From a virus (lineage: Duplodnaviria; Heunggongvirae; Uroviricota; Caudoviricetes): DNA of 7,633 nt. The DNA is taken from IMG/VR virus record IMGVR_UViG_2654587509_000013; one strand, written 5' to 3'. Made by a program: the position numbers and the translations under genes. The notes beneath the pieces are model-generated. The model was not told where the DNA came from and searched no databases. It worked only from the letters and a program-made list of their open reading frames with translations. This document shows, in pieces, positions 746 to 7,244 of the stretch (positions within the stretch are counted from its first letter, which is position 1; every line of letters starts with the position of its first letter).

Positions 746-1711
746 TTATCCTCTGAAACCAGGCGGAATTTCTGTATCCGGTTCAGAAATATGATTAACA
801 CAACGCTGTACAGGTGAACGCCCCAGGCGGATGACCAGTTCGTCCCATTTTTCGCGGAGCTTTGACGGGCTCATGATGTTTTTTACCCAGAACGGATCCC
901 GCTGTACCCGACCAAACATTTCACAAATTTGTCTGTGGCTTCTGCCATCCAGCATCCGCATTGTGCGCACATCATTGGCCCAGACAGTCCAGTTAGGCTC
1001 TTTTGGTCGCATGATCTCGCCATCATCACTGGCGGCCTGTTCGTAGAGACCCACGATCCGCCCCCATATCCACTGCGCACACGCCAGATCCTCCTGGCTA
1101 CCCCACTGGCGTTTTTTCGCACTAAACACAACTGCGCCAGGGTGCCGGATTAAAAAATCCTGTTCAGCCGTCTGCGGGTCCGGTTGCGAAGCTTCCGGAC
1201 GAAAAGTGTTTTTATTCTCTGTAGTAATCTCTGTTGTATTCTCTGTAGGATCATCGGGCCATTTTGACCCGATGACATTGGGTCGTTTTGAACCAATGGA
1301 GCGTTTCATTTTGACCTCTTCCATCGTGTCATTTTGACCTGATGGAGCGGCGCATTTTGAACCGATGGATTCGCTCAATTTGCCATCATCTAAAAGCTCG
1401 CTCCCATAGTTAATCGTGTAGAAATTGGTCATATCGCGCTTTGATTTATTGAGCTTTTCACAACGCAAGAGCCCCAGCGTTTTCAGACTTGCAAACGCGC
1501 GCTTTAACGTTGACTCTGACCAGAATGGGAACTGTTCCAGCCATTGTTCCGTTGTGTTGTAAATCCAGCGAACACCATCACATTCCATGCCGGAATTGGT
1601 ATCTCTCAACCAGTAATGCAACTGCTGCAACACAATGGCTTCATTTAAGCCAATCTTCATCGCAAGCTGTGTGTTTATAACCAGTGGGCGTTCAGCAAAA
1701 AGAAGGCTCAT
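746..1711 (-). CDS. Phage replication initiation protein (lambda O functional analogue), 321 aa from the first ATG
   Basis: Long ORF at the O position downstream of the Cro-like and CII-position genes. The coding sequence contains a tandem iteron array plus an AT-rich tract, as lambda O contains ori. The ORF track opens at a TTG (1765); the first ATG is at 1711 with a weak GGA-type SD, so the start is uncertain (1711 or 1765). Confidence 0.8.
   Translation of the reverse strand: MSLLFAERPLVINTQLAMKIGLNEAIVLQQLHYWLRDTNSGMECDGVRWIYNTTEQWLEQFPFWSESTLKRAFASLKTLGLLRCEKLNKSKRDMTNFYTINYGSELLDDGKLSESIGSKCAAPSGQNDTMEEVKMKRSIGSKRPNVIGSKWPDDPTENTTEITTENKNTFRPEASQPDPQTAEQDFLIRHPGAVVFSAKKRQWGSQEDLACAQWIWGRIVGLYEQAASDDGEIMRPKEPNWTVWANDVRTMRMLDGRSHRQICEMFGRVQRDPFWVKNIMSPSKLREKWDELVIRLGRSPVQRCVNHISEPDTEIPPGFRG
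1260..1398. repeat. Iteron array, putative phage origin of replication embedded in the initiator gene
   Basis: Direct repeats with consensus CATTTTGA(C/A)CnGATGG start at 1260, 1284, 1307, 1330 and 1353, with a degenerate sixth copy near 1376. Spacing is 23-24 bp. An AT-rich tract at 1203-1250 lies just downstream in the coding direction and carries a 12-bp motif TATTCTCTGTAG at 1213-1224 and 1237-1248, with a degenerate copy between. Confidence 0.7.
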
Positions 1712-2213
1712 AATTCCATCCAGCTTTTTGTTGGTATTGCTGTCGATACGCAAGTTTGAAAGCAATTGCTTTTTCTATAAGTTCGTCAGTTTCACGATCC
1801 ACTACGGCAGGATCAGCAAAAAGCAGTCCGGACTCCACCACATCGCCATATTCTTTGTTTAACCCGGCGATCATGTACGTGATGCTTTTTCCGTCACTAA
1901 TTTCACGATACAACCTGAAATCATTAATCCGGATAGCCTCCATAATTGCAGGCACTAGCGCCGTGAACTTTTCACGCTTATCCCTGGTGTCGATAGCCTT
2001 CCAGCGTTCGAATATCTTCACTCGATTAACGCCAAGCGCTCGCTGATCAACCGCGCCACCTTCATCTGTGACACGCTGAACATCGATGTTCGGGCGCTCT
2101 TTCAAAGCCCAGAATGCTTCAGTGATTAATATCGTCGCCTGCTCCTGTGTCATTCCTGGTCGACATATCCAGGCATCCAGAGCCTCACGAGCCTGTTCAG
2201 GAGTGATTTTCAT
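1692..2213 (-). CDS. Early regulator at the CII position (173 aa), possibly YdaT-like
   Basis: ATG at 2213; its start overlaps the stop of the upstream Cro-like gene by 17 nt and its 3' end overlaps the start of the replication gene. Assignment to the YdaT/CII-like class is by synteny and memory only, not by a motif I can verify. Confidence 0.8.
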   Translation of the reverse strand: MKITPEQAREALDAWICRPGMTQEQATILITEAFWALKERPNIDVQRVTDEGGAVDQRALGVNRVKIFERWKAIDTRDKREKFTALVPAIMEAIRINDFRLYREISDGKSITYMIAGLNKEYGDVVESGLLFADPAVVDRETDELIEKAIAFKLAYRQQYQQKAGWNYEPSFC

Positions 2214-2424
2214 TGTTCAACCGCCCCGCCCGCTTCGTCTTACGATATTCGTCATAAACCTTGGGATCATACAGAAGCTCGCCGCCAGATGCCTCCTGTA
2301 GACGCATCGCGCGACCTTCAGGAACTAGCTCTTGCCATTGAGAAACAGCAGATGGGTCAACGCCAGCAGCTTTCGCTACTTTGGCTTTCGTACCGTAAAA
2401 ATTAATTACGTCTGATTTAAACAT
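2197..2424 (-). CDS. Cro-like HTH regulator (DicC/YdaS-type), 75 aa
   Basis: ATG at 2424 is preceded by a strong SD (GGAGGT). The ORF track start at 2451 is a TTG inside the operator region. Divergent from the repressor gene. Protein has an HTH-like GTKAKVAKAAGVDPSAVSQW segment and a C-terminus resembling what I recall of DicC. Confidence 0.85.
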   Translation of the reverse strand: MFKSDVINFYGTKAKVAKAAGVDPSAVSQWQELVPEGRAMRLQEASGGELLYDPKVYDEYRKTKRAGRLNNENHS

Positions 2425-2501
2425 CGCACCTCCAATATTGAGTTTTCTCAATGCTAATCACTCAAGGAATCTCAAGTCAAGGGTTATTAAGATATCTAAA
2501 T
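2425..2501. promoter_or_regulatory. Divergent promoter/operator region between Cro-like and repressor genes
   Basis: Perfect palindrome TTGAG-TTTT-CTCAA at 2438-2451, followed by direct CTCAAG(G) half-site copies at 2461, 2471 and 2477. Candidate leftward promoter on the minus strand: -35 TTGACT (complement of 2475-2480), 18-bp spacer, -10 TAGCAT (complement of 2451-2456). Confidence 0.6.
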
Positions 2502-2909
2502 ATGAACGAGAAAACTTTAGGTCAACGCATTAGAGAAAGACGTAAGCAGGTAGGCTTAAGTCAAAACGGTTTAAGCAAAGCTGCTGGCGTATCTGGCTCA
2601 TCAATTTCATTATGGGAAAGTGACCATACAGCCCCGCGCGGGCAAAATTTGCATCGCCTCGCCGAGGTATTGCAATGTTCACCAACCTGGATACTGTTTG
2701 GCGACGAGGACAAAACACCAGCTCCCCCTGTTTCACTCGATAGTACCCTAGACTTATCGGAAGATGAGTTAGAGATGCTGCGTTTGTATCGCGCACTTCC
2801 TAAATCAGAGCAACAAGCACAACTCAGCGAACTCCGCGCCCGCGTTGAGAATTTTAATCGCCTGTTCACCGAGCTATTAGAGGCTCGCAAACGCAACAAG
2901 CATCAATAA
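2502..2909 (+). CDS. dicA: DicA-like HTH (XRE-family) prophage repressor, 135 aa
   Basis: N-terminal HTH (LGQRIRERRKQVGLSQNGLSKAAGVSGSSISLWE) and the C-terminal motif VLQCSPTWILFGDEDK match what I recall of E. coli DicA (135 aa). Start taken at ATG 2502 (MNEKTLGQRIR) rather than the upstream in-frame ATG at 2451, which lies in the operator. No S24 peptidase domain, so this is not a LexA-like autocleaving repressor. Confidence 0.85.
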   Translation: MNEKTLGQRIRERRKQVGLSQNGLSKAAGVSGSSISLWESDHTAPRGQNLHRLAEVLQCSPTWILFGDEDKTPAPPVSLDSTLDLSEDELEMLRLYRALPKSEQQAQLSELRARVENFNRLFTELLEARKRNKHQ

Positions 2910-2966
2910 TCATCCCTTCACAAAATTTTAAAGCCTTACATTTCAATGTATTGGCTTTATCTTGCG

Positions 2967-3025
2967 CCAATACTTGAGTTTTCTCATCAAAAAACCTTGA
3001 CGAAAAATAATGAGAAAACTAAATT
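2967..3025 (+). promoter_or_regulatory. Second operator set and putative rightward promoter (OL/pL analogue)
   Basis: CCAATACTTGAGTTTTCTCA (2967-2986) repeats the operator at 2432-2450 with a 1-nt indel, sharing a 13-nt identical core. An inverted partner TGAGAAAACTA sits at 3011-3021. Between them: -35 TTGACG (2996-3001), 18-bp spacer, -10 TAAATT (3020-3025). Confidence 0.55.
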
Positions 3026-3101
3026 ACCTCCATCAACACACCGCACGGTGTTCTCCGCAAACAGTTCCGCTACCCCGGCGTTAAGGGGAAATGAGGTCAG
3101 C

Positions 3102-3254
3102 ATGGATACTATCGATCTTGGCAACAGCGAATCTCTGGTATGTGGCGTGTTCCCCAACCATGACGGTACGTTCACCGCGATGACATATACCAAAAGCAAA
3201 ACGTTTAAAACCGAATCTGGCGCGCGTTGCTGGTTAGCCAGAAACACTGACTGA
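3102..3254 (+). CDS. ydfA: YdfA-like small protein (DUF1391-type), 50 aa
   Basis: ATG 3102 with SD GAGG and a 5-nt spacer. MDTIDLGNSESLVCGVFPNHDGTFTAMTYTKSKTFKTESGARCWLARNTD resembles what I recall of E. coli YdfA/YdaF. Sits immediately downstream of the dicA-like gene, as ydfA does. The ORF track's longer 2946 start spans the operator region. Confidence 0.7.
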   Translation: MDTIDLGNSESLVCGVFPNHDGTFTAMTYTKSKTFKTESGARCWLARNTD

Positions 3255-3265
3255 TGAGGCTGACG

Positions 3266-3631
3266 ATGGAATTTAAAGATTTACCGTCTGATGTACAGAA
3301 AACAGCAGCTCATACATTGCATTCTGTGCTGCGAGAAATCGGGAAAGATATTGCAAGCGAGCCAGCAAAAGATCTGGCCCGGAAAATCAAGACCGCTTTC
3401 GTTGAGCTTTATAATGTTGGCACTGACTCTGAAACTGTCGAGACCAAGACCGTAAGTTCACCAATATTCTCACTTGAGCCAGGCGTATTATCAGGTGAAA
3501 TATGCACCGAGATTTCCAGCGAACTGCTTCCGGTAATACGAGAAGCAATTTGCCGTCGCGGTTTGGATGGAAGTTACGATCATGACGTCCTGCAAGTTCT
3601 CAGGACAATGGTGACTTCACTGGGGATTTGA
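3266..3631 (+). CDS. Hypothetical protein, 121 aa, co-transcribed with the repressor-side operon
   Basis: ATG 3266 with SD TGAGG and a 6-nt spacer. An alternative ATG at 3254 overlaps the ydfA-like stop (TGATG). Amino-acid composition is protein-like; no recognisable motif. Confidence 0.7.
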   Translation: MEFKDLPSDVQKTAAHTLHSVLREIGKDIASEPAKDLARKIKTAFVELYNVGTDSETVETKTVSSPIFSLEPGVLSGEICTEISSELLPVIREAICRRGLDGSYDHDVLQVLRTMVTSLGI

Positions 3632-3800
3632 TCCCTGCGTCCTCTAACCTTTTGATATAGCGGTCCTCCAAGAAGCGGTAAATTTTGTCGAAATCATCTT
3701 TCCCCTCTGGTTTATTCAGAGGATTACAGGACCCGTAAGTAGCGGCATACATTTCAACCGTTTTATCAAAAATATAAGAGACAAATTCTTCTTTAGTCAT
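3600..3800 (-). CDS. Hypothetical small protein, 66 aa, antisense AT-rich moron-like gene
   Basis: ATG at 3800 with a good SD (AAGGAA, 7-nt spacer). Visibly more AT-rich than its neighbours. The 3' end overlaps the 3' end of the 121-aa gene by 32 bp, convergently. Confidence 0.6.
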   Translation of the reverse strand: MTKEEFVSYIFDKTVEMYAATYGSCNPLNKPEGKDDFDKIYRFLEDRYIKRLEDAGIKSPVKSPLS

Positions 3801-3877
3801 ATAGATTTCCTTCTTGGTTATTCGGAATAAGAAGGATACCACCTCGCCTGACGTGGTTAAAAGCAGGCACACAACAC

Positions 3878-4050
3878 GAAAGCGCACGGCGAAGTTCGTC
3901 TCACTGTACGGTGTCGTTAAATTTAATTCGACCGTGCGCTTCCGGTTGTGGCAACCCGCGAAATGGCGCGGCGGTAAGTATGGCGGGGTTATTCCTTCCC
4001 CGTTGAGGACACCGAGTTGTCAGGTTGACCATACGCTTAAGTGACAACCC
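3878..4050. other. GC-rich structured spacer, candidate ncRNA or protein-binding element (strand unknown)
   Basis: A 13-bp stem with a 1-nt bulge (3881-3893 pairs with 3927-3940), a hairpin CGGGG/CCCCG (3984-3988 and 3998-4002), and a 7-bp stem GTTGTCA/TGACAAC (4016-4022 and 4042-4048). The only ORF here (3814-4044, basic and low-complexity) does not look coding. Confidence 0.3.
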
Positions 4051-4090
4051 CGCTGCAACGCCCTCTGTTATCAATTTTCTGGTGACGTTT

Positions 4091-4133
4091 GGCGGTATCA
4101 GTTTTACTCCGTGACTGCTCTGCCGCCGTTTTT
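4091..4133 (+). terminator. Possible intrinsic terminator (plus strand)
   Basis: GGCGG (4091-4095) pairs with CCGCC (4123-4127) around a long, partly self-paired loop, followed by a T5 run at 4129-4133. The loop is unusually large for a canonical terminator. Confidence 0.3.
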
Positions 4134-4302
4134 AAAGTGAATTTTGTGATGCGGTGAATGCGGCTAAGCGCACGCGGAACAGTTAAAACCAAAAACAGTG
4201 TTATGGGTGGATTCTCTGTATCCGGCGTTAATTGTTAACTGGTTAACGTCACCTGGAGGCACCAGGCACTGCATCACAAAATTCATTGTTGAGGACGCGA
4301 TA

Positions 4303-4491
4303 ATGAAAACGTTATTACCAAACGTTAATACGTCTGAAGGTTGTTTTGAAATTGGTGTCACTATCAGTAACCCTGTATTTACTGAAGATGCCATTAACAA
4401 GAGAAAACAAGAACGGGAGCTATTAAATAAAATATGCATTGTTTCAATGCTGGCTCGTTTACGTCTGATGCCAAAAGGATGTGCACAATGA
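4303..4491 (+). CDS. Hypothetical small protein, 62 aa
   Basis: ATG 4303 with SD GAGGA and a 7-nt spacer. Its stop overlaps the next start (ATGA at 4488-4491), implying translational coupling. Confidence 0.55.
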   Translation: MKTLLPNVNTSEGCFEIGVTISNPVFTEDAINKRKQERELLNKICIVSMLARLRLMPKGCAQ

Positions 4492-4679
4492 ATTCAGCAT
4501 TTGCGCTTGTTCTGACAGTTTTTCTTGTTTCCGGAGAGCCAGTTGATATTGCAGTCAGTGTTCACAGGACAATGCAGGAGTGTATGACTGCAGCAACCGA
4601 ACAGAAAATTCCCGGTAACTGTTACCCGGTCGATAAAGTTATTCACCAGGATAATATCGAAATCCCGGCAGGTCTTTAA
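4488..4679 (+). CDS. Hypothetical small exported or membrane protein, 63 aa
   Basis: ATG 4488 with an AAGGA SD. N-terminal hydrophobic segment MNSAFALVLTVFLVSG resembles a signal peptide or transmembrane helix; three Cys in the mature part. Confidence 0.6.
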   Translation: MNSAFALVLTVFLVSGEPVDIAVSVHRTMQECMTAATEQKIPGNCYPVDKVIHQDNIEIPAGL

Positions 4680-4772: not shown

Positions 4773-7244
4773 ATGAGTAAAGTCTTTATTTGCGCCGCTA
4801 TTCCTGACGAACTGGCAACAAGGGAAGAAGGCGCTGTGGCTGTAGCCACAGCCATTGAAGCTGGCGACGAACGCCGTGCTCGAGCAAAATTTCACTGGCA
4901 GTTCCTGGAACATTATCCGGCTGCTCAGGACTGCGCTTATAAATTTATTGTCTGCGAGGATAAACCTGGCATACCCCGCCCTGCCCTCGATTCATGGGAT
5001 GCTGAATATATGCAGGAAAACCGCTGGGATGAGGAGTCTGCTTCTTTTGTCCCGGTTGAGACTGAATCCGATCCGATGAACGTCACTTTTGACAAGCTGG
5101 CCCCTGAAGTACAGAACGCTGTCATGGTTAAGTTCGACACATGTGAAAACATCACCGTTGATATGGTTATTAGCGCACAGGAATTGTTGCAGGAAGACAT
5201 GGCAACATTCGACGGACATATCGTTGAAGCGTTGATGAAAATGCCAGAAGTTAACGCCATGTATCCGGAGCTTAAGTTGCACGCCATTGGGTGGGTTAAG
5301 CATAAATGTATTCCTGGTGCTAAATGGCCCGAAATTCAGGCAGAGATGCGCATCTGGAAAAAACGTCGCGAAGGTGAACGCAAGGAAACCGGAAAATACA
5401 CGTCTGTTGTTGATCTCGCCCGCGCCAGAGCCAATCAACAGTACACTGAAAATTCAACAGGAAAAATCAGCCCGGTCATTGCTGCCATTCATCGCGAATA
5501 CAAGCAGACATGGAAAACACTGGATGACGAACTGGCCTACGCTCTCTGGCCTGGTGATGTGGATGCCGGAAACATTGACGGCAGCATCCATCGCTGGGCA
5601 AAAAAAGAAGTTATCGACAACGACCGCGAAGACTGGAAGCGTATCTCGGCATCAATGCGCAAACAGCCTGATGCCCTTCGCTACGACCGCCAGACTATTT
5701 TTGGCCTTGTCCGTGAGCGTCCGATCGACATTCACAAAGATCCCATAGCACTGAACAAATATATCTGCGAATACCTGACGACAAAGGGCGTGTTTGAGAA
5801 TGAAGAAACAGACCTGGGCACTGTTGATGTTCTCCAGTCATCAGAAACACAAACTGATGCAGTGGAAACTGAGGTATCTGATATCCCAAAAAATGAAACC
5901 GCGCCGGAAGCTGAACCATCTGTAGAGCGTGAGGGGCCGTTCTATTTCCTCTTCGCAGATAAGGACGGAGAAAAATACGGTCGCGCAAACAAACTTTCTG
6001 GTCTGGATAAGGCACTGGCTGCTGGCGCCACTGAAATCACAAAAGAAGAATATTTTGCCCGAAAAAATGGCACATACACGGGCTTACCGCAAAATGTAGA
6101 TACCGCTGAAGATTCAGAACAACCAGAGCCGATAAAAGTTACCGCTGACGAAGTAAACAAAATTATGCAGGCAGCCAATATCAGCCAGCCTGACGCCGAT
6201 AAGTTGCTTGCTGCATCACGTGGTGAATTTGTTGAAGGGATTAGTGACCCGAATGATCCGAAATGGGTTAAGGGGATCCAGACCCGCGATTCTGTGAACC
6301 AGAACCAGCATGAATCGGAACGGAACTACCAAAAAGCGGAACAAAACAGCACAAATGCGTTACAAAACGAGCCAGAAACGAAACAGCCTGAACCAGTGGC
6401 GCAACAGGAAGTGGAAAAAGTCTGCACCGCCTGCGGTCAGACCGGCGGCGGCAACTGCCCTGATTGTGGCGCGGTGATGGGCGACGCAACATACCAAGAA
6501 ACATTCGATGAAGAGTATCAGGTTGAAGTTCAGGAAGATGATCCGGAGGAAATGGAAGGCGCTGAACATCCACACAAGGAGAACACTGGCGGCAATCAGC
6601 ATCACAATAGCGATAATGAAACTGGCGAGACGGCAGATCACTCAATTAAGGTGAACGGTCATCACGAAATCACATCCACCAGCAGGACGTGTGACCATCT
6701 AATGATCGACCTTGAAACCATGGGAAAAAATCCTGATGCCCCGATCATCTCAATAGGTGCAATATTTTTCGATCCGCAAACCGGAGATATGGGACCGGAA
6801 TTTAGTAAGACTATCGATCTGGAAACTGCTGGCGGAGTCATTGATCGGGACACCATTAAATGGTGGCTTAAGCAATCACGCGAAGCGCAATCTGCCATTA
6901 TGACCGATGAAATCCCGTTAGATGATGCACTGTTACAATTACGGGAATTTATCGACGAAAACTCCGGTGAATTTTTTGTTCAGGTTTGGGGAAATGGAGC
7001 CAACTTCGACAACACAATTTTGCGCCGTTCATACGAACGGCAGGGGATCCCCTGCCCGTGGCGTTACTACAACGATCGCGATGTACGCACAATCGTTGAG
7101 CTGGGGAAAGCCATAGACTTCGATGCCAGAACGGCTATTCCATTCGAAGGTGAGCGCCATAATGCACTTGATGACGCCCGTTACCAGGCAAAATACGTTT
7201 CAGTTATCTGGCAAAAACTGATCCCGAGTCAGGCTGATTCTTAA
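4773..7244 (+). CDS. Large multidomain exonuclease protein, 823 aa: unknown N-terminal domain, acidic linker, Cys4 zinc ribbon, C-terminal DnaQ-like DEDDh 3'-5' exonuclease
   Basis: Single 824-codon frame. Zinc ribbon CTACGQTGGGNCPDC (C-x2-C-x7-C-x2-C) at 6423-6467. DEDDh motifs: Exo I DLE at 6708-6716, Exo II NFD at 7002-7010, Exo III H-x4-D (HNALDDA) at 7158-7178. Sits at the exo position upstream of the excisionase-like gene. Related prophage genes are often labelled exodeoxyribonuclease VIII-like, but no PD-(D/E)XK motif or partner annealase is visible here. Confidence 0.9.
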   Translation: MSKVFICAAIPDELATREEGAVAVATAIEAGDERRARAKFHWQFLEHYPAAQDCAYKFIVCEDKPGIPRPALDSWDAEYMQENRWDEESASFVPVETESDPMNVTFDKLAPEVQNAVMVKFDTCENITVDMVISAQELLQEDMATFDGHIVEALMKMPEVNAMYPELKLHAIGWVKHKCIPGAKWPEIQAEMRIWKKRREGERKETGKYTSVVDLARARANQQYTENSTGKISPVIAAIHREYKQTWKTLDDELAYALWPGDVDAGNIDGSIHRWAKKEVIDNDREDWKRISASMRKQPDALRYDRQTIFGLVRERPIDIHKDPIALNKYICEYLTTKGVFENEETDLGTVDVLQSSETQTDAVETEVSDIPKNETAPEAEPSVEREGPFYFLFADKDGEKYGRANKLSGLDKALAAGATEITKEEYFARKNGTYTGLPQNVDTAEDSEQPEPIKVTADEVNKIMQAANISQPDADKLLAASRGEFVEGISDPNDPKWVKGIQTRDSVNQNQHESERNYQKAEQNSTNALQNEPETKQPEPVAQQEVEKVCTACGQTGGGNCPDCGAVMGDATYQETFDEEYQVEVQEDDPEEMEGAEHPHKENTGGNQHHNSDNETGETADHSIKVNGHHEITSTSRTCDHLMIDLETMGKNPDAPIISIGAIFFDPQTGDMGPEFSKTIDLETAGGVIDRDTIKWWLKQSREAQSAIMTDEIPLDDALLQLREFIDENSGEFFVQVWGNGANFDNTILRRSYERQGIPCPWRYYNDRDVRTIVELGKAIDFDARTAIPFEGERHNALDDARYQAKYVSVIWQKLIPSQADS

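What the first reader, a model, noticed from the sequence alone, without database searches (positions are those of the whole stretch)
3102..3800. Repressor-linked accessory slot carrying uncharacterised cargo
The genes directly downstream of the repressor occupy the position where lambda carries rexAB and other lambdoids carry varied lysogen-expressed exclusion or defence genes. Here the slot holds a YdfA-like 50-aa protein, a 121-aa protein with no recognisable motif, and a convergent AT-rich 66-aa gene with its own SD. These are plausible lysogen-expressed superinfection-exclusion or toxin/antitoxin-like functions. This is an inference from position and composition only.
Basis: inference. 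Interest (0 to 1): 0.6.

Follow-up and report, generated by a model that had tools for sequence, protein, structure and literature searches.

The report
Prophage early genes plus sieB-slot cargo
The three small genes are real, but two of them belong to the repressor-silenced early operon of a Qin-like E. coli prophage; only the third, backwards-pointing 66-codon gene sits in the slot, behind the same conserved DNA element, where phages lambda, P22 and Rac keep their exclusion gene sieB, which in P22 is expressed from the prophage.

Summary
The window is the immunity and early-left region of a Qin/mEp460-type lambdoid prophage of E. coli. All three ORFs exist and are real genes: ydfA-like 3102-3254, a 121-aa gene 3266-3631, and a convergent 66-aa gene 3600-3800.

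The rexAB analogy fails for the first two. A promoter-like site flanked by two copies of the operator-like repeat lies between the repressor gene and ydfA. This is the dicBp/PL equivalent, shown in K-12 to be repressed by DicA, so ydfA and the 121-aa gene are early-operon genes co-transcribed with DicF and dicB.

Positions 3255-3831 form a swappable cassette that replaces K-12 ydfB-ydfC. It occurs in 392 of 5426 complete E. coli genomes.

The 66-aa gene is under strong purifying selection and points against the operon. It is preceded by a conserved element of about 37 nt that also precedes sieB in lambda, Rac and P22-like phages. In other prophages the same element precedes about nine other unrelated small genes. 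This gene therefore occupies the sieB slot and is plausibly lysogen-expressed.

Its function is unknown. There is no family, defence-system or fold match, and expression and phenotype were not testable here.

The parts
2438..2450 (.). Operator-like repeat TTGAGTTTTCTCA in the cro/repressor intergenic region (OR-type copy)
   Evidence: three copies in the window against 0.39 expected by chance.
2502..2909 (+). DicA-like repressor (135 aa, HTH_3, no S24 cleavage domain). It is heteroimmune to K-12 DicA.
   Evidence: HTH_3, E = 2.5e-15; annotation; only about 60% nt identity to K-12 dicA.
2974..2986 (.). Operator-like repeat, exact copy, just upstream of the -35 of the early-left promoter
2997..3025 (+). 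Promoter-like site TTGACG-17-TAAATT, the equivalent of K-12 dicBp (lambda PL analogue)
   Evidence: In the alignment it lies at the position of K-12 TTGACC-17-TAATCT, and near-identity to K-12 starts at about 3029, right after the -10. dicBp repression by DicA is documented in PMC10448788 and PMC3441716.
3011..3023 (.). Operator-like repeat (reverse orientation, 1 mismatch) overlapping the -10
3029..3101 (+). Leader of the early-left transcript, about 98% identical to K-12 Qin
3102..3254 (+). ydfA homologue (DUF1391, 50 aa), first gene of the operon
   Evidence: 86% identical to K-12 YdfA and 82% to Rac YdaF.
3266..3631 (+). 121-aa early gene. It has a conserved N-terminal two-helix domain (residues 1-50, 'MEFKDLP' family), a disordered linker, and a cassette-specific C-terminal domain (82-121).
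3255..3831 (.). Exchangeable cassette that replaces ydfB-ydfC of K-12
   Evidence: (392 of 5426 genomes; right-hand junction at 3832).
3600..3800 (-). 66-aa soluble two-helix protein gene, convergent with the 121-aa gene (32-nt overlap); it fills the sieB slot
   Evidence: dN/dS 0.10-0.28; contexts; sieB parallel.
3808..3836 (.). Inverted repeat TCCTTCTT / AAGAAGGA (arms 3808-3815 and 3829-3836). On the minus strand it pairs the Shine-Dalgarno of the 66-aa gene with the end of the conserved element.
   Evidence: swap test across cargo families (7.07 vs 5.37 bp, p = 0.013).
3832..3868 (-). Conserved 'sieB-slot' upstream element GCCTGCTTTTAACCACGTCAGGCGAGGTGGTATCCTT. It is either a promoter or a leader.
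4077..4128 (+). DicF sRNA (context: same operon, downstream)
   Evidence: Rfam RF00039, 72.5 bits.
4303..4491 (+). dicB (context: same operon)
   Evidence: (PF05358, E = 2e-40).

Best explanation
The stretch is not one unit but two transcription units facing each other, inside the early-left region of a Qin/mEp460-type lambdoid prophage.

(1) ydfA and the 121-aa gene are the promoter-proximal genes of the dicBF (PL-type) operon. They are transcribed from a promoter just downstream of the repressor gene. That promoter carries the same operator-like repeat as the cro/repressor intergenic region. These genes are therefore kept mostly off by the DicA-like repressor. They are made together with DicF, DicB, YdfD and the exonuclease when the repressor is inactivated. 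The 121-aa protein combines a backbone-encoded N-terminal helical hairpin, found as the first or second early-left gene in many enterobacterial prophages, with a C-terminal part that belongs to the inserted cassette.

(2) The 66-aa gene is a separate, reverse-oriented cargo gene (a moron) in the slot that holds sieB in lambda, P22-like phages and Rac. It is preceded by the same conserved element of about 37 nt. I infer that it is transcribed on its own when the early operon is silent, that is, in the lysogen. I also infer that convergent early-left transcription (antisense to it) and the hairpin that can sequester its Shine-Dalgarno limit its expression once the operon fires, as the sas antisense RNA does for P22 sieB. 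Its product is a small soluble alpha-hairpin that most likely acts by binding another protein. A superinfection-exclusion or other lysogen-benefit role is the best guess from the slot alone.

Shown: the gene reality, operon membership, cassette nature, slot and element homology. Inferred: independent transcription, timing of expression and biological role.

Confidence by part: operon membership about 0.85; sieB-slot moron with its own conserved upstream element about 0.7; lysogen expression with an exclusion-type role about 0.35.
For: Operon membership:
- DicF, DicB, YdfD and DUF1391 lie in K-12 order.
- Identity to K-12 Qin is about 98% over 3029-3245 and over 3912-4500.
- A promoter-like site lies at 2997-3025, flanked and overlapped by two copies of the repeat that also lies between cro and the repressor gene (3 copies against 0.39 expected).
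- Other immunity types show the same OL/OR repeat logic next to 121-aa-family genes: L008 and L016.
- In K-12, dicBp is repressed 22-fold by DicA and gives a ydfABC-dicF(-dicB-ydfD) transcript (PMC10448788). ydfA RNA rises when dicA falls (PMC3441716).

Cassette:
- Positions 3255-3831 are unrelated to K-12 ydfB-ydfC.
- The cassette is present in 392 of 5426 genomes, whereas some part of 2900-4320 (leader, ydfA, dicF precursor) matches in 4738.
- It is present in the isolated, sequenced phage mEp460_ev081.

The 66-aa gene:
- dN/dS is 0.10-0.28.
- In every locus examined it is antisense to an early operon. It sits after the first early-left gene in the window, L004, L007, L008, L015 and L016, and between cro and cII in Cedecea.
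- The motif GGTGRTAYCCTT occurs once per locus, on the cargo strand, 28-38 nt before the ATG, in 12 of 17 loci and in none lacking such cargo.
- The element is shared with lambda sieB, Rac sieB (with compensatory stem changes) and sieB of the P22-like phage ST104; see alignment A11.
- Rac has the same gene order: repressor, ydaG, ydaF (DUF1391), convergent sieB, sRNA, division inhibitor, exonuclease.
- P22 sieB is expressed from the prophage (abstract of PMC10883804).
- Genes antisense to lytic operons are typical accessory loci (PMC7067206).
Against: - No transcription start site or expression data exist for this cassette.
- The promoter scan found no site of 9/12 or better upstream of the 66-aa gene.
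- The extended -10 reading (TGgTATCCT) is not conserved in lambda and Rac, where GGTGGT is followed by a different sequence.
- The extended -10 reading is also incompatible with the hairpin being part of the mRNA.
- The hairpin could act on either strand, because G-U and A-C evidence is symmetrical. The authors of the SfV genome annotated it as a terminator of the early-left strand.
- The 66-aa protein is unrelated to SieB and has no membrane segment.
- It has no match in PADLOC, Pfam or NCBIfam and no informative fold match, so the exclusion role rests on position only.
- dicBp is leaky in stationary phase and in subpopulations (PMC10448788), so 'silent in the lysogen' is not absolute for ydfA and the 121-aa gene.
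Confidence: 0.6

Rival explanations
1. One reading: the whole of 3102-3800 is a rexAB-type slot, co-expressed with the repressor in the lysogen, that carries exclusion or defence cargo.
For: The genes lie directly downstream of the repressor gene on the same strand. The region is variable between prophages. DicB from the same operon does give phage exclusion when expressed (PMC6832061 abstract; PMC10448788 introduction).
Against: A 192-bp gap with a promoter-like site and two operator-like copies lies between the repressor stop codon and ydfA. In lambda, rexAB lie before OL/PL, not after it. K-12 dicBp is repressed by DicA and ydfA is on the dicBF transcript. ydfA and the N-terminal domain of the 121-aa protein are conserved backbone genes rather than variable cargo.
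Confidence: 0.08
2. The cassette encodes an interacting pair. The 66-aa protein would be a lysogen-expressed effector or toxin, and the C-terminal domain of the 121-aa early protein would be its antagonist, made only when the prophage is induced (an effector/immunity or toxin/antitoxin-like logic).
For: The C-terminal domain travels with the 66-aa gene even when the N-terminal part of the convergent gene is different: the L004/L015 129-aa protein is 36% identical over 39 residues, beyond the overlap. Other cargo families behind the same element also come with their own cargo-specific C-terminal tail on the convergent early gene. The convergent overlap makes their transcription mutually antagonistic.
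Against: Overlapping genes are co-inherited for trivial reasons. The Cedecea homologue (73% identity) stands alone between cro and cII, and the first early-left gene there is unrelated. There is no similarity to any known toxin, antitoxin or defence protein. The confidence of the C-terminal domain model is low (pLDDT about 53). In K-12, toxicity of the operon is accounted for by dicF and dicB (PMC5069750). No complex prediction could be run.
Confidence: 0.15
3. The reverse unit works mainly as RNA. Its transcript is an antisense brake on leaky early-left transcription of toxic DicF/DicB, and the 66-aa product is secondary.
For: The unit is antisense to an early operon in every context, including a different operon in Cedecea. 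lambda uses antisense transcripts this way (PRE, paQ and OOP; general knowledge and PMC12197685). The upstream element is more conserved than the cargo behind it.
Against: Strong purifying selection acts on the protein (dN/dS 0.10-0.28 with saturated dS). The Shine-Dalgarno is good. About nine unrelated but intact ORF families sit at a fixed distance behind the element, which argues that the proteins matter.
Confidence: 0.12
4. The 121-aa protein is the functional analogue of antiterminator N, because it is the first early-left gene and is convergent with the sieB-slot gene, as N is in lambda.
For: Position only. In L007, L008 and L016 it is the sole gene between the repressor and the reverse cargo, exactly where N (lambda) and gene 24 (ST104) lie. 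No N homologue is annotated in the prophage. The transcript must pass the DicF terminator.
Against: There is no arginine-rich N-terminus: 2 basic residues in the first 22, and a domain pI of 6.7. The N-terminal domain is predicted as a folded helical hairpin, whereas N is disordered. There is no Pfam match. Many family members are only 50-65 aa.
Confidence: 0.05

Closest known systems
dicBF operon of cryptic prophage Qin, E. coli K-12 (dicA/dicC immunity, dicBp, ydfABC-dicF-dicB-ydfD)
   Same: Same chromosomal site next to rspB, same gene order, and about 98% identical leader, ydfA, dicF precursor and dicB. The promoter sits at the same position, with operator copies matching its own immunity region.
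   Different: The repressor and operator specificity differ (heteroimmune). ydfB and ydfC are replaced by the 121-aa/66-aa cassette. The prophage here looks complete, and the same region occurs in the isolated, sequenced phage mEp460_ev081.
sieB loci of lambda, P22-like phages and Rac (superinfection exclusion; in P22 expressed from the prophage, with esc and the sas antisense RNA)
   Same: A reverse-oriented gene convergent with the first early-left gene(s). It is preceded by the same conserved element, GCCTG..TTTTMACCAC.TCAGGC..GGTGGT. Rac also shares ydaF (a ydfA homologue) and the order sRNA, division inhibitor, exonuclease.
   Different: The cargo protein is unrelated to SieB (E > 1). It is 66 aa, soluble and without hydrophobic segments, whereas SieB is 160-195 aa with hydrophobic stretches. 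There is no evidence for an internal esc-like start or a sas-like RNA. The distance from the element to the ATG is about 31 nt here and about 50-75 nt for sieB.
lambda rexAB
   Same: Non-essential cargo next to the repressor gene in a mosaic part of the immunity region.
   Different: rexAB lie between cI and OL/PL and are co-transcribed with cI. Here the genes lie beyond the operators and promoter, so two of them are early-operon genes and the third is on the opposite strand.
Prophage morons / accessory loci transcribed antisense to lytic operons (e.g. lambda bor, ST64B STMMW_20121)
   Same: A small autonomous gene, slightly AT-richer than its surroundings, embedded against the flow of a repressed operon (PMC7067206).
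   Different: Here a conserved upstream element is shared by many unrelated cargo genes. I did not find that feature described in the papers I could search.

Membership tests
dicBF / PL-type early-left operon | Promoter with repressor operators between the repressor gene and the first gene | tested here: met
   Promoter-like site at 2997-3025. Two copies of the repeat found in the cro/repressor intergenic region. Aligned with K-12 dicBp. Repressor binding itself was not tested.
dicBF / PL-type early-left operon | DicF RNA, dicB and ydfD downstream on the same strand | tested here: met
   Rfam DicF at 72.5 bits; PF05358 and PF07358.
dicBF / PL-type early-left operon | ydfA (DUF1391) as the first gene | tested here: met
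   PF07151, E = 1e-26; 86% identical to K-12 YdfA.
dicBF / PL-type early-left operon | ydfB and ydfC between ydfA and dicF | tested here: not met
   Positions 3255-3831 are unrelated to K-12 ydfB/ydfC. This is a variant filling of the operon.
rexAB-type slot (cargo co-transcribed with the repressor) | Cargo lies between the repressor gene and OL/PL, with no promoter or operator in between | tested here: not met
   The operator-like copies and the promoter-like site lie upstream of ydfA. Compare the lambda layout.
sieB-slot reverse cargo (moron) | Gene on the strand opposite to the early-left operon, convergent with the promoter-proximal early gene(s) | tested here: met
   66-aa gene at 3600-3800 (-) overlaps the end of the 121-aa gene. 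Same arrangement in lambda N/sieB, ST104 24/sieB and Rac ydaF/sieB.
sieB-slot reverse cargo (moron) | Conserved upstream element shared with sieB genes | tested here: met
   Alignment A11; lambda; Rac; ST104; 158 phage records.
sieB-slot reverse cargo (moron) | Transcribed from its own promoter in the lysogen | not testable with these tools
   Only a candidate extended -10 (TGgTATCCT) is present. The scan found no 9/12 promoter, and there are no expression data.
SieB protein family | Sequence homology to SieB | tested here: not met
   BLASTP against lambda SieB gives E = 1.2. No Pfam or PHROG link.
Superinfection exclusion / anti-phage defence systems | Match to a known defence protein model | tested here: not met
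   PADLOC returned 0 families for all three proteins at E <= 1.
Superinfection exclusion / anti-phage defence systems | Protection phenotype against phage challenge | not testable with these tools
   Needs an experiment.
Toxin-antitoxin (type II or type I) | Known toxin or antitoxin domain, or a small hydrophobic toxin | tested here: not met
   No Pfam, NCBIfam or PADLOC hit. The maximum 19-residue hydropathy is 0.31 for the 66-aa protein and 1.04 for the 121-aa protein. The genes are convergent, not a co-directional bicistron.
Toxin-antitoxin (type II or type I) | Toxicity of one partner relieved by the other | not testable with these tools
   Indirect only: in K-12 the toxicity of the induced operon disappears without dicF and dicB (PMC5069750). 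That covers ydfA but not this cassette.
N-type antiterminators | Arginine-rich RNA-binding motif at the N-terminus | tested here: not met
   The first 22 residues have 2 basic residues; the N-terminal domain has pI 6.7 and is predicted as a folded helical hairpin.

The most novel reading that the evidence does not exclude
The conserved element of about 37 nt (GCCTG..CTTTTMACCAC.TCAGGC..GGTGGT, here followed by ATCCTT) may be a portable 'head' for exchangeable small-gene cassettes in the sieB slot of enterobacterial lambdoid and P22-like phages. Behind it sit sieB and about nine other unrelated small ORF families, at a fixed distance. A hairpin covaries with each cargo's Shine-Dalgarno. Many cargoes come with a cargo-specific C-terminal tail on the convergent early gene. 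If so, the element marks a family of lysogen-expressed effectors, each paired with an early-expressed antagonist or an antisense off-switch, in a generalisation of P22 sieB/esc/sas. The 66-aa/121-aa cassette would be one uncharacterised member.
Probability: 0.25. Interest if true: 0.6.

Novelty: new member of a known kind. Interest (0 to 1): 0.4.

Why it matters
The practical result is a correction of the map. In dicBF-type prophages, present in most E. coli genomes, genes directly after the repressor are not automatically lysogen-expressed cargo. Here the early promoter comes first.

The one gene that plausibly is lysogen-expressed lies in the sieB slot and is recognisable by a short conserved upstream element. 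That element could serve as a sequence tag to harvest candidate exclusion or lysogenic-conversion genes from prophages. Nearly all of these sites are unannotated or annotated as hypothetical.

The element also offers a tractable case of how a prophage might switch such a gene off when its own lytic programme starts. None of this is a new kind of system; it extends the moron and sieB concepts.

Tried and rejected
- **Family searches.** Pfam, NCBIfam and PADLOC gave nothing for the 121-aa and 66-aa proteins. PHROGs gave only 'unknown function' families.
- **Weak histone signal.** The N-terminal domain hit archaeal histones at E about 0.05 (NCBIfam; PDB profile). I rejected it: it is below any threshold, short (about 27 residues), the two hits are not independent, and the AF2 model breaks the helix where histones have one long helix.
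- **Structure.** The AF2 model of the 121-aa protein is poor (pLDDT 59.9). The model of the 66-aa protein is fair (80.8) but is a plain two-helix hairpin. Foldseek against PDB and BFVD gave nothing with E < 1. The profile search against PDB sequences gave nothing for the 66-aa family.
- **Domain fusions.** Pfam returned nothing for 24 longer members of the N-terminal-domain family.
- **Rfam.** Searching 3740-3960 at E <= 10 gave no family.
- **Promoter for the 66-aa gene.** The consensus scan found none. The extended -10 reading and the anti-Shine-Dalgarno hairpin reading are mutually exclusive, and I could not decide between them. G-U against A-C pairs did not settle the strand of the hairpin.
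- **Literature.** The original sieB paper (PMC204922) is not held. Searches for the protein accessions found no paper.
- **Selection on the C-terminal domain.** The dN/dS estimate for the C-terminal domain of the 121-aa protein is uninformative because there are too few substitutions.
Full report
**What the window is.** The 7.6-kb window is 100% identical to part of a prophage in the E. coli L65 chromosome. That prophage is integrated next to rspB, the site of cryptic prophage Qin in K-12. The same segment is 99.7% identical in phage mEp460_ev081.

The map is as follows:
- cro/dicC-like gene, 2197-2424 (-)
- YdaT-like (CII-analogue) gene, 1692-2213 (-)
- DicA-like repressor, 2502-2909 (+)
- ydfA-like gene, 3102-3254 (+)
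- 121-aa gene, 3266-3631 (+)
- 66-aa gene, 3600-3800 (-)
- DicF RNA, 4077-4128 (Rfam 72.5 bits)
- dicB, 4303-4491
- ydfD, 4488-4679
- 823-aa exonuclease, 4773-7244

**Observation.** They are genes rather than chance ORFs.
- The 50-aa protein is DUF1391. It is 86% identical to K-12 YdfA and 82% identical to Rac YdaF.
- The 66-aa ORF has full-length homologues down to 54% identity. Its dN/dS is 0.10-0.28 with saturated synonymous change.
- The 121-aa ORF has dN/dS of 0.38-0.54.
- The 66-aa gene has a strong Shine-Dalgarno and 40.8% G+C against 46.8% for the window.

**Are ydfA and the 121-aa gene a rexAB-like, lysogen-expressed slot? No.**
- Between the repressor stop codon (2909) and ydfA (3102) lies a promoter-like site, TTGACG-17-TAAATT, at 2997-3025.
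- The 13-mer TTGAGTTTTCTCA occurs in the cro/repressor intergenic region (2438-2450). It occurs again at 2974-2986 and, inverted with one mismatch, at 3011-3023, so it brackets and overlaps this promoter. That is 3 copies against 0.39 expected. This is the OR/OL logic of lambdoid immunity regions.
- Aligned with K-12, the promoter-like site falls at the position of TTGACC-17-TAATCT. Near-identity to K-12 (about 98%) begins at 3029, immediately after the -10, and runs through ydfA. The immunity module (repressor, operators, promoter) has therefore been swapped as a unit, and the transcribed region is conserved.
- For K-12 this promoter (dicBp) is experimentally repressed 22-fold by DicA. It is described as the PL analogue and gives ydfABC-dicF and ydfABC-dicFB-ydfD transcripts (PMC10448788). 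ydfA RNA rises with dicB, dicC and dicF when dicA drops (PMC3441716).
- In two other immunity types, the gap between the repressor gene and a 121-aa-family gene also carries copies of the repeats found between cro and the repressor gene (L008 and L016).
- In lambda, rexAB lie before OL/PL. Here the genes lie after the equivalent site.

ydfA and the 121-aa gene are therefore early-operon genes, mostly silent in the lysogen. K-12 data show that the promoter is leaky in stationary phase and in subpopulations.

**The cassette.** Positions 3255-3831 have no similarity to K-12, where ydfB and ydfC lie. The cassette occurs in 392 of 5426 complete E. coli genomes. Some part of 2900-4320 (leader, ydfA, dicF precursor) matches in 4738 genomes. 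The right-hand junction is at 3832.

Other fillings of the same site are:
- K-12: ydfB and ydfC.
- Strain 13C1079T and phage HannyBb: a truncated ydfB plus a reverse-oriented 106-aa membrane protein gene. It is unannotated there but has 60 homologues.
- PPompW- and Evi-type phages: a 118-aa gene, ydfC, a 135-aa 'MEFKDLP' protein, and a convergent 77-aa gene.

**The 121-aa protein.**
- Residues 1-50 form a two-helix hairpin in the AF2 model (pLDDT about 78), followed by a disordered linker and a low-confidence C-terminal pair of helices.
- The N-terminal domain defines a family with 94 clusters at 50% identity in 1.8 billion representatives. Many members are only 50-65 aa, and others carry unrelated C-termini. 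Pfam matched neither this protein nor 24 longer members of the family.
- In every locus examined it is the first or second gene after the repressor gene.
- The C-terminal domain recurs in a 129-aa protein with a different N-terminus, again convergent with a 66-aa homologue.
- There is no arginine-rich motif, so it is not N-like.
- Its function is unknown.

**The 66-aa gene.**
- The model is a soluble two-helix hairpin (pLDDT 80.8), acidic and without a hydrophobic segment.
- No family, defence-model, solved-structure or fold match was found.
- Its contexts are informative. In the window and in L004, L007, L008, L015, L016 and L017 it is convergent with, and overlaps, the first early-left gene. 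In Cedecea it lies between cro and cII, antisense to the early-right operon.
- It is thus always set against an early lytic operon, the arrangement described as typical of prophage accessory loci (PMC7067206).

**The conserved upstream element.**
- All homologues share a block upstream of the ATG: GCCTG(t)CTTTTmACCACnTCAGGC-nn-GGTGGTATCCTT. In the window it lies at 3832-3868 on the minus strand.
- The core GGTGRTAYCCTT occurs exactly once, on the cargo strand, 28-38 nt before the ATG, in each of the 12 loci with such cargo. It does not occur in the other five loci. The chance expectation in the window is 0.07, allowing one mismatch.
- The ORF that follows at a fixed distance falls into 10 BLASTP clusters, one of them a doubtful 40-aa ORF. 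They include our 66-aa family, an 81-aa family (the commonest), the 106-aa membrane protein, the 77-aa family of PPompW, and a Cys-rich 66-aa family.
- Sequence upstream of the block is unrelated between backbones, so the block is portable and the cargo behind it is exchanged.

**Link to sieB.**
- Rac in K-12 has the parallel order racR, ydaG, ydaF (a ydfA homologue), convergent sieB, kilS sRNA, kilR, recE.
- Upstream of Rac sieB lies a diverged copy of the element, with compensatory changes in the GCCTG/CAGGC stem, which becomes GCCCGG/CCGGGC.
- In lambda, sieB (34482-35036, convergent with N) is preceded by TGTGCCTGTCTTTTAACCACATCAGGCTCGGTGGT.
- In the P22-like phage ST104 the element precedes sieB, which is convergent with gene 24. 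Alignment A11 shows all of these together.
- The 35-nt lambda version occurs in 158 phage records, almost always in unannotated sequence.
- P22 sieB is a prophage-expressed exclusion gene (PMC10883804 abstract). It is controlled by the antisense RNA sas (PMC12197685).

The 66-aa gene therefore fills the sieB slot, although its protein is unrelated to SieB.

**What the element does is unresolved.**
- *Reading A, promoter.* This reading proposes an extended -10 promoter (TGgTATCCT) with a 4/6 match to the -35. The size of the block fits a promoter. However, lambda and Rac lack TATCCT, and the scan threshold was not reached.
- *Reading B, leader hairpin.* TCCTT plus the next 2-6 nt pairs with the cargo's Shine-Dalgarno region. 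Swapping flanks between cargo families shortens the stem from 7.07 to 5.37 bp (p = 0.013), so the pairing covaries with the cargo. But the hairpin could act on either strand, and the SfV genome authors annotated it as an early-left terminator.

A and B cannot both hold for the same transcript.

**Mechanism, with confidence.**
- Shown: two opposed units, repressor-type control elements in front of ydfA and the 121-aa gene, an exchangeable cassette, and a shared slot and element with sieB.
- Inferred: the 66-aa gene is transcribed independently when the early operon is off, and is shut down by convergent transcription or antisense pairing when the operon fires. Its product acts by binding a protein, for the benefit of the lysogen. 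Exclusion is the leading guess, from the slot only.
- A pairing with the C-terminal domain of the 121-aa protein is possible but weakened by the stand-alone Cedecea gene.
- Toxicity is not indicated. In K-12, toxicity of the operon is due to dicF and dicB (PMC5069750), which covers ydfA only.

**Verdict.** This is a new, uncharacterised member of known kinds: early-left operon accessory genes plus a sieB-slot moron. The shared upstream element with interchangeable cargo is the most interesting by-product.

Noticed in passing
window 3832-3868 (-); loci L018-L137; lambda J02459 34396-34430: A conserved element of about 37 nt precedes the 66-aa gene, sieB of lambda, Rac and P22-like phages, and about nine other unrelated small ORF families at a fixed distance. 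The lambda-type version is found in 158 phage records and is almost never annotated. It is also compatible with a pseudoknot (GCCTG/CAGGC plus ACCAC/GTGGT).
   Followed up: partly
L011 2147-2467 (-), same in phage HannyBb L012: A reverse-oriented 106-aa membrane protein gene fills the same slot. NCBI left it unannotated in this genome, and the HannyBb authors called a 205-aa ORF on the opposite strand instead. It has 60 homologues of the same length, including in Yersinia, Herminiimonas and Reinekea.
   Followed up: partly
window 3029 (junction) and 2400-3028: The mosaic junction with K-12 Qin falls right after the -10 of the early-left promoter. The repressor, cro, operators and promoter were exchanged as one immunity module, while the transcribed leader is about 98% conserved.
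   Followed up: partly
window 3912-3930 (GTTAAATTTAA at 3917-3927); Rac L138 3004-3030: The start of the conserved dicF precursor region shares GTTAAATTTAA with the sequence just upstream of the Rac sRNA KilS, which was reported as possibly independently transcribed (PMC8175672). This hints at an internal promoter upstream of dicF, which the 2023 dicBF paper argues against for K-12.
   Followed up: no
L014 2440-2500 (-): In PPompW-type phages the element is followed by a 13-codon ORF, MNTIKFSCPECGG*. It is a truncated remnant of a 66-aa Cys-rich cargo gene that is intact in viral contig L064. This is evidence of cargo decay in the slot.
   Followed up: no
L141 (phage SfV) 1552-1584: The hairpin next to the element is annotated by the SfV genome authors as a putative rho-independent terminator of the early-left strand. 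No ORF is annotated behind the element there.
   Followed up: no
window 3266-3415 (residues 13-40 of the 121-aa protein): There is a weak local similarity to archaeal histones HMfA/HMfB (GKDIASEPAKDLARK against GRDIASEAIKLARH; E about 0.05 in two non-independent searches). I judged it not significant.
   Followed up: partly
window 4773-7244: The 823-aa 'exonuclease' has only a C-terminal Rv2179c-like 3'-5' exonuclease domain (residues 642-813). Its middle part is long, acidic and low-complexity and has no family match.
   Followed up: no
E. coli ATCC 8739 (NZ_CP043852.1 1227304-1227949): This strain carries the 121-aa/66-aa cassette at 99.8% identity. A 2016 survey (PMC5069750) described its dicF locus as K-12-like but lacking ydfB, so the cassette seems to have been overlooked there.
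   Followed up: no
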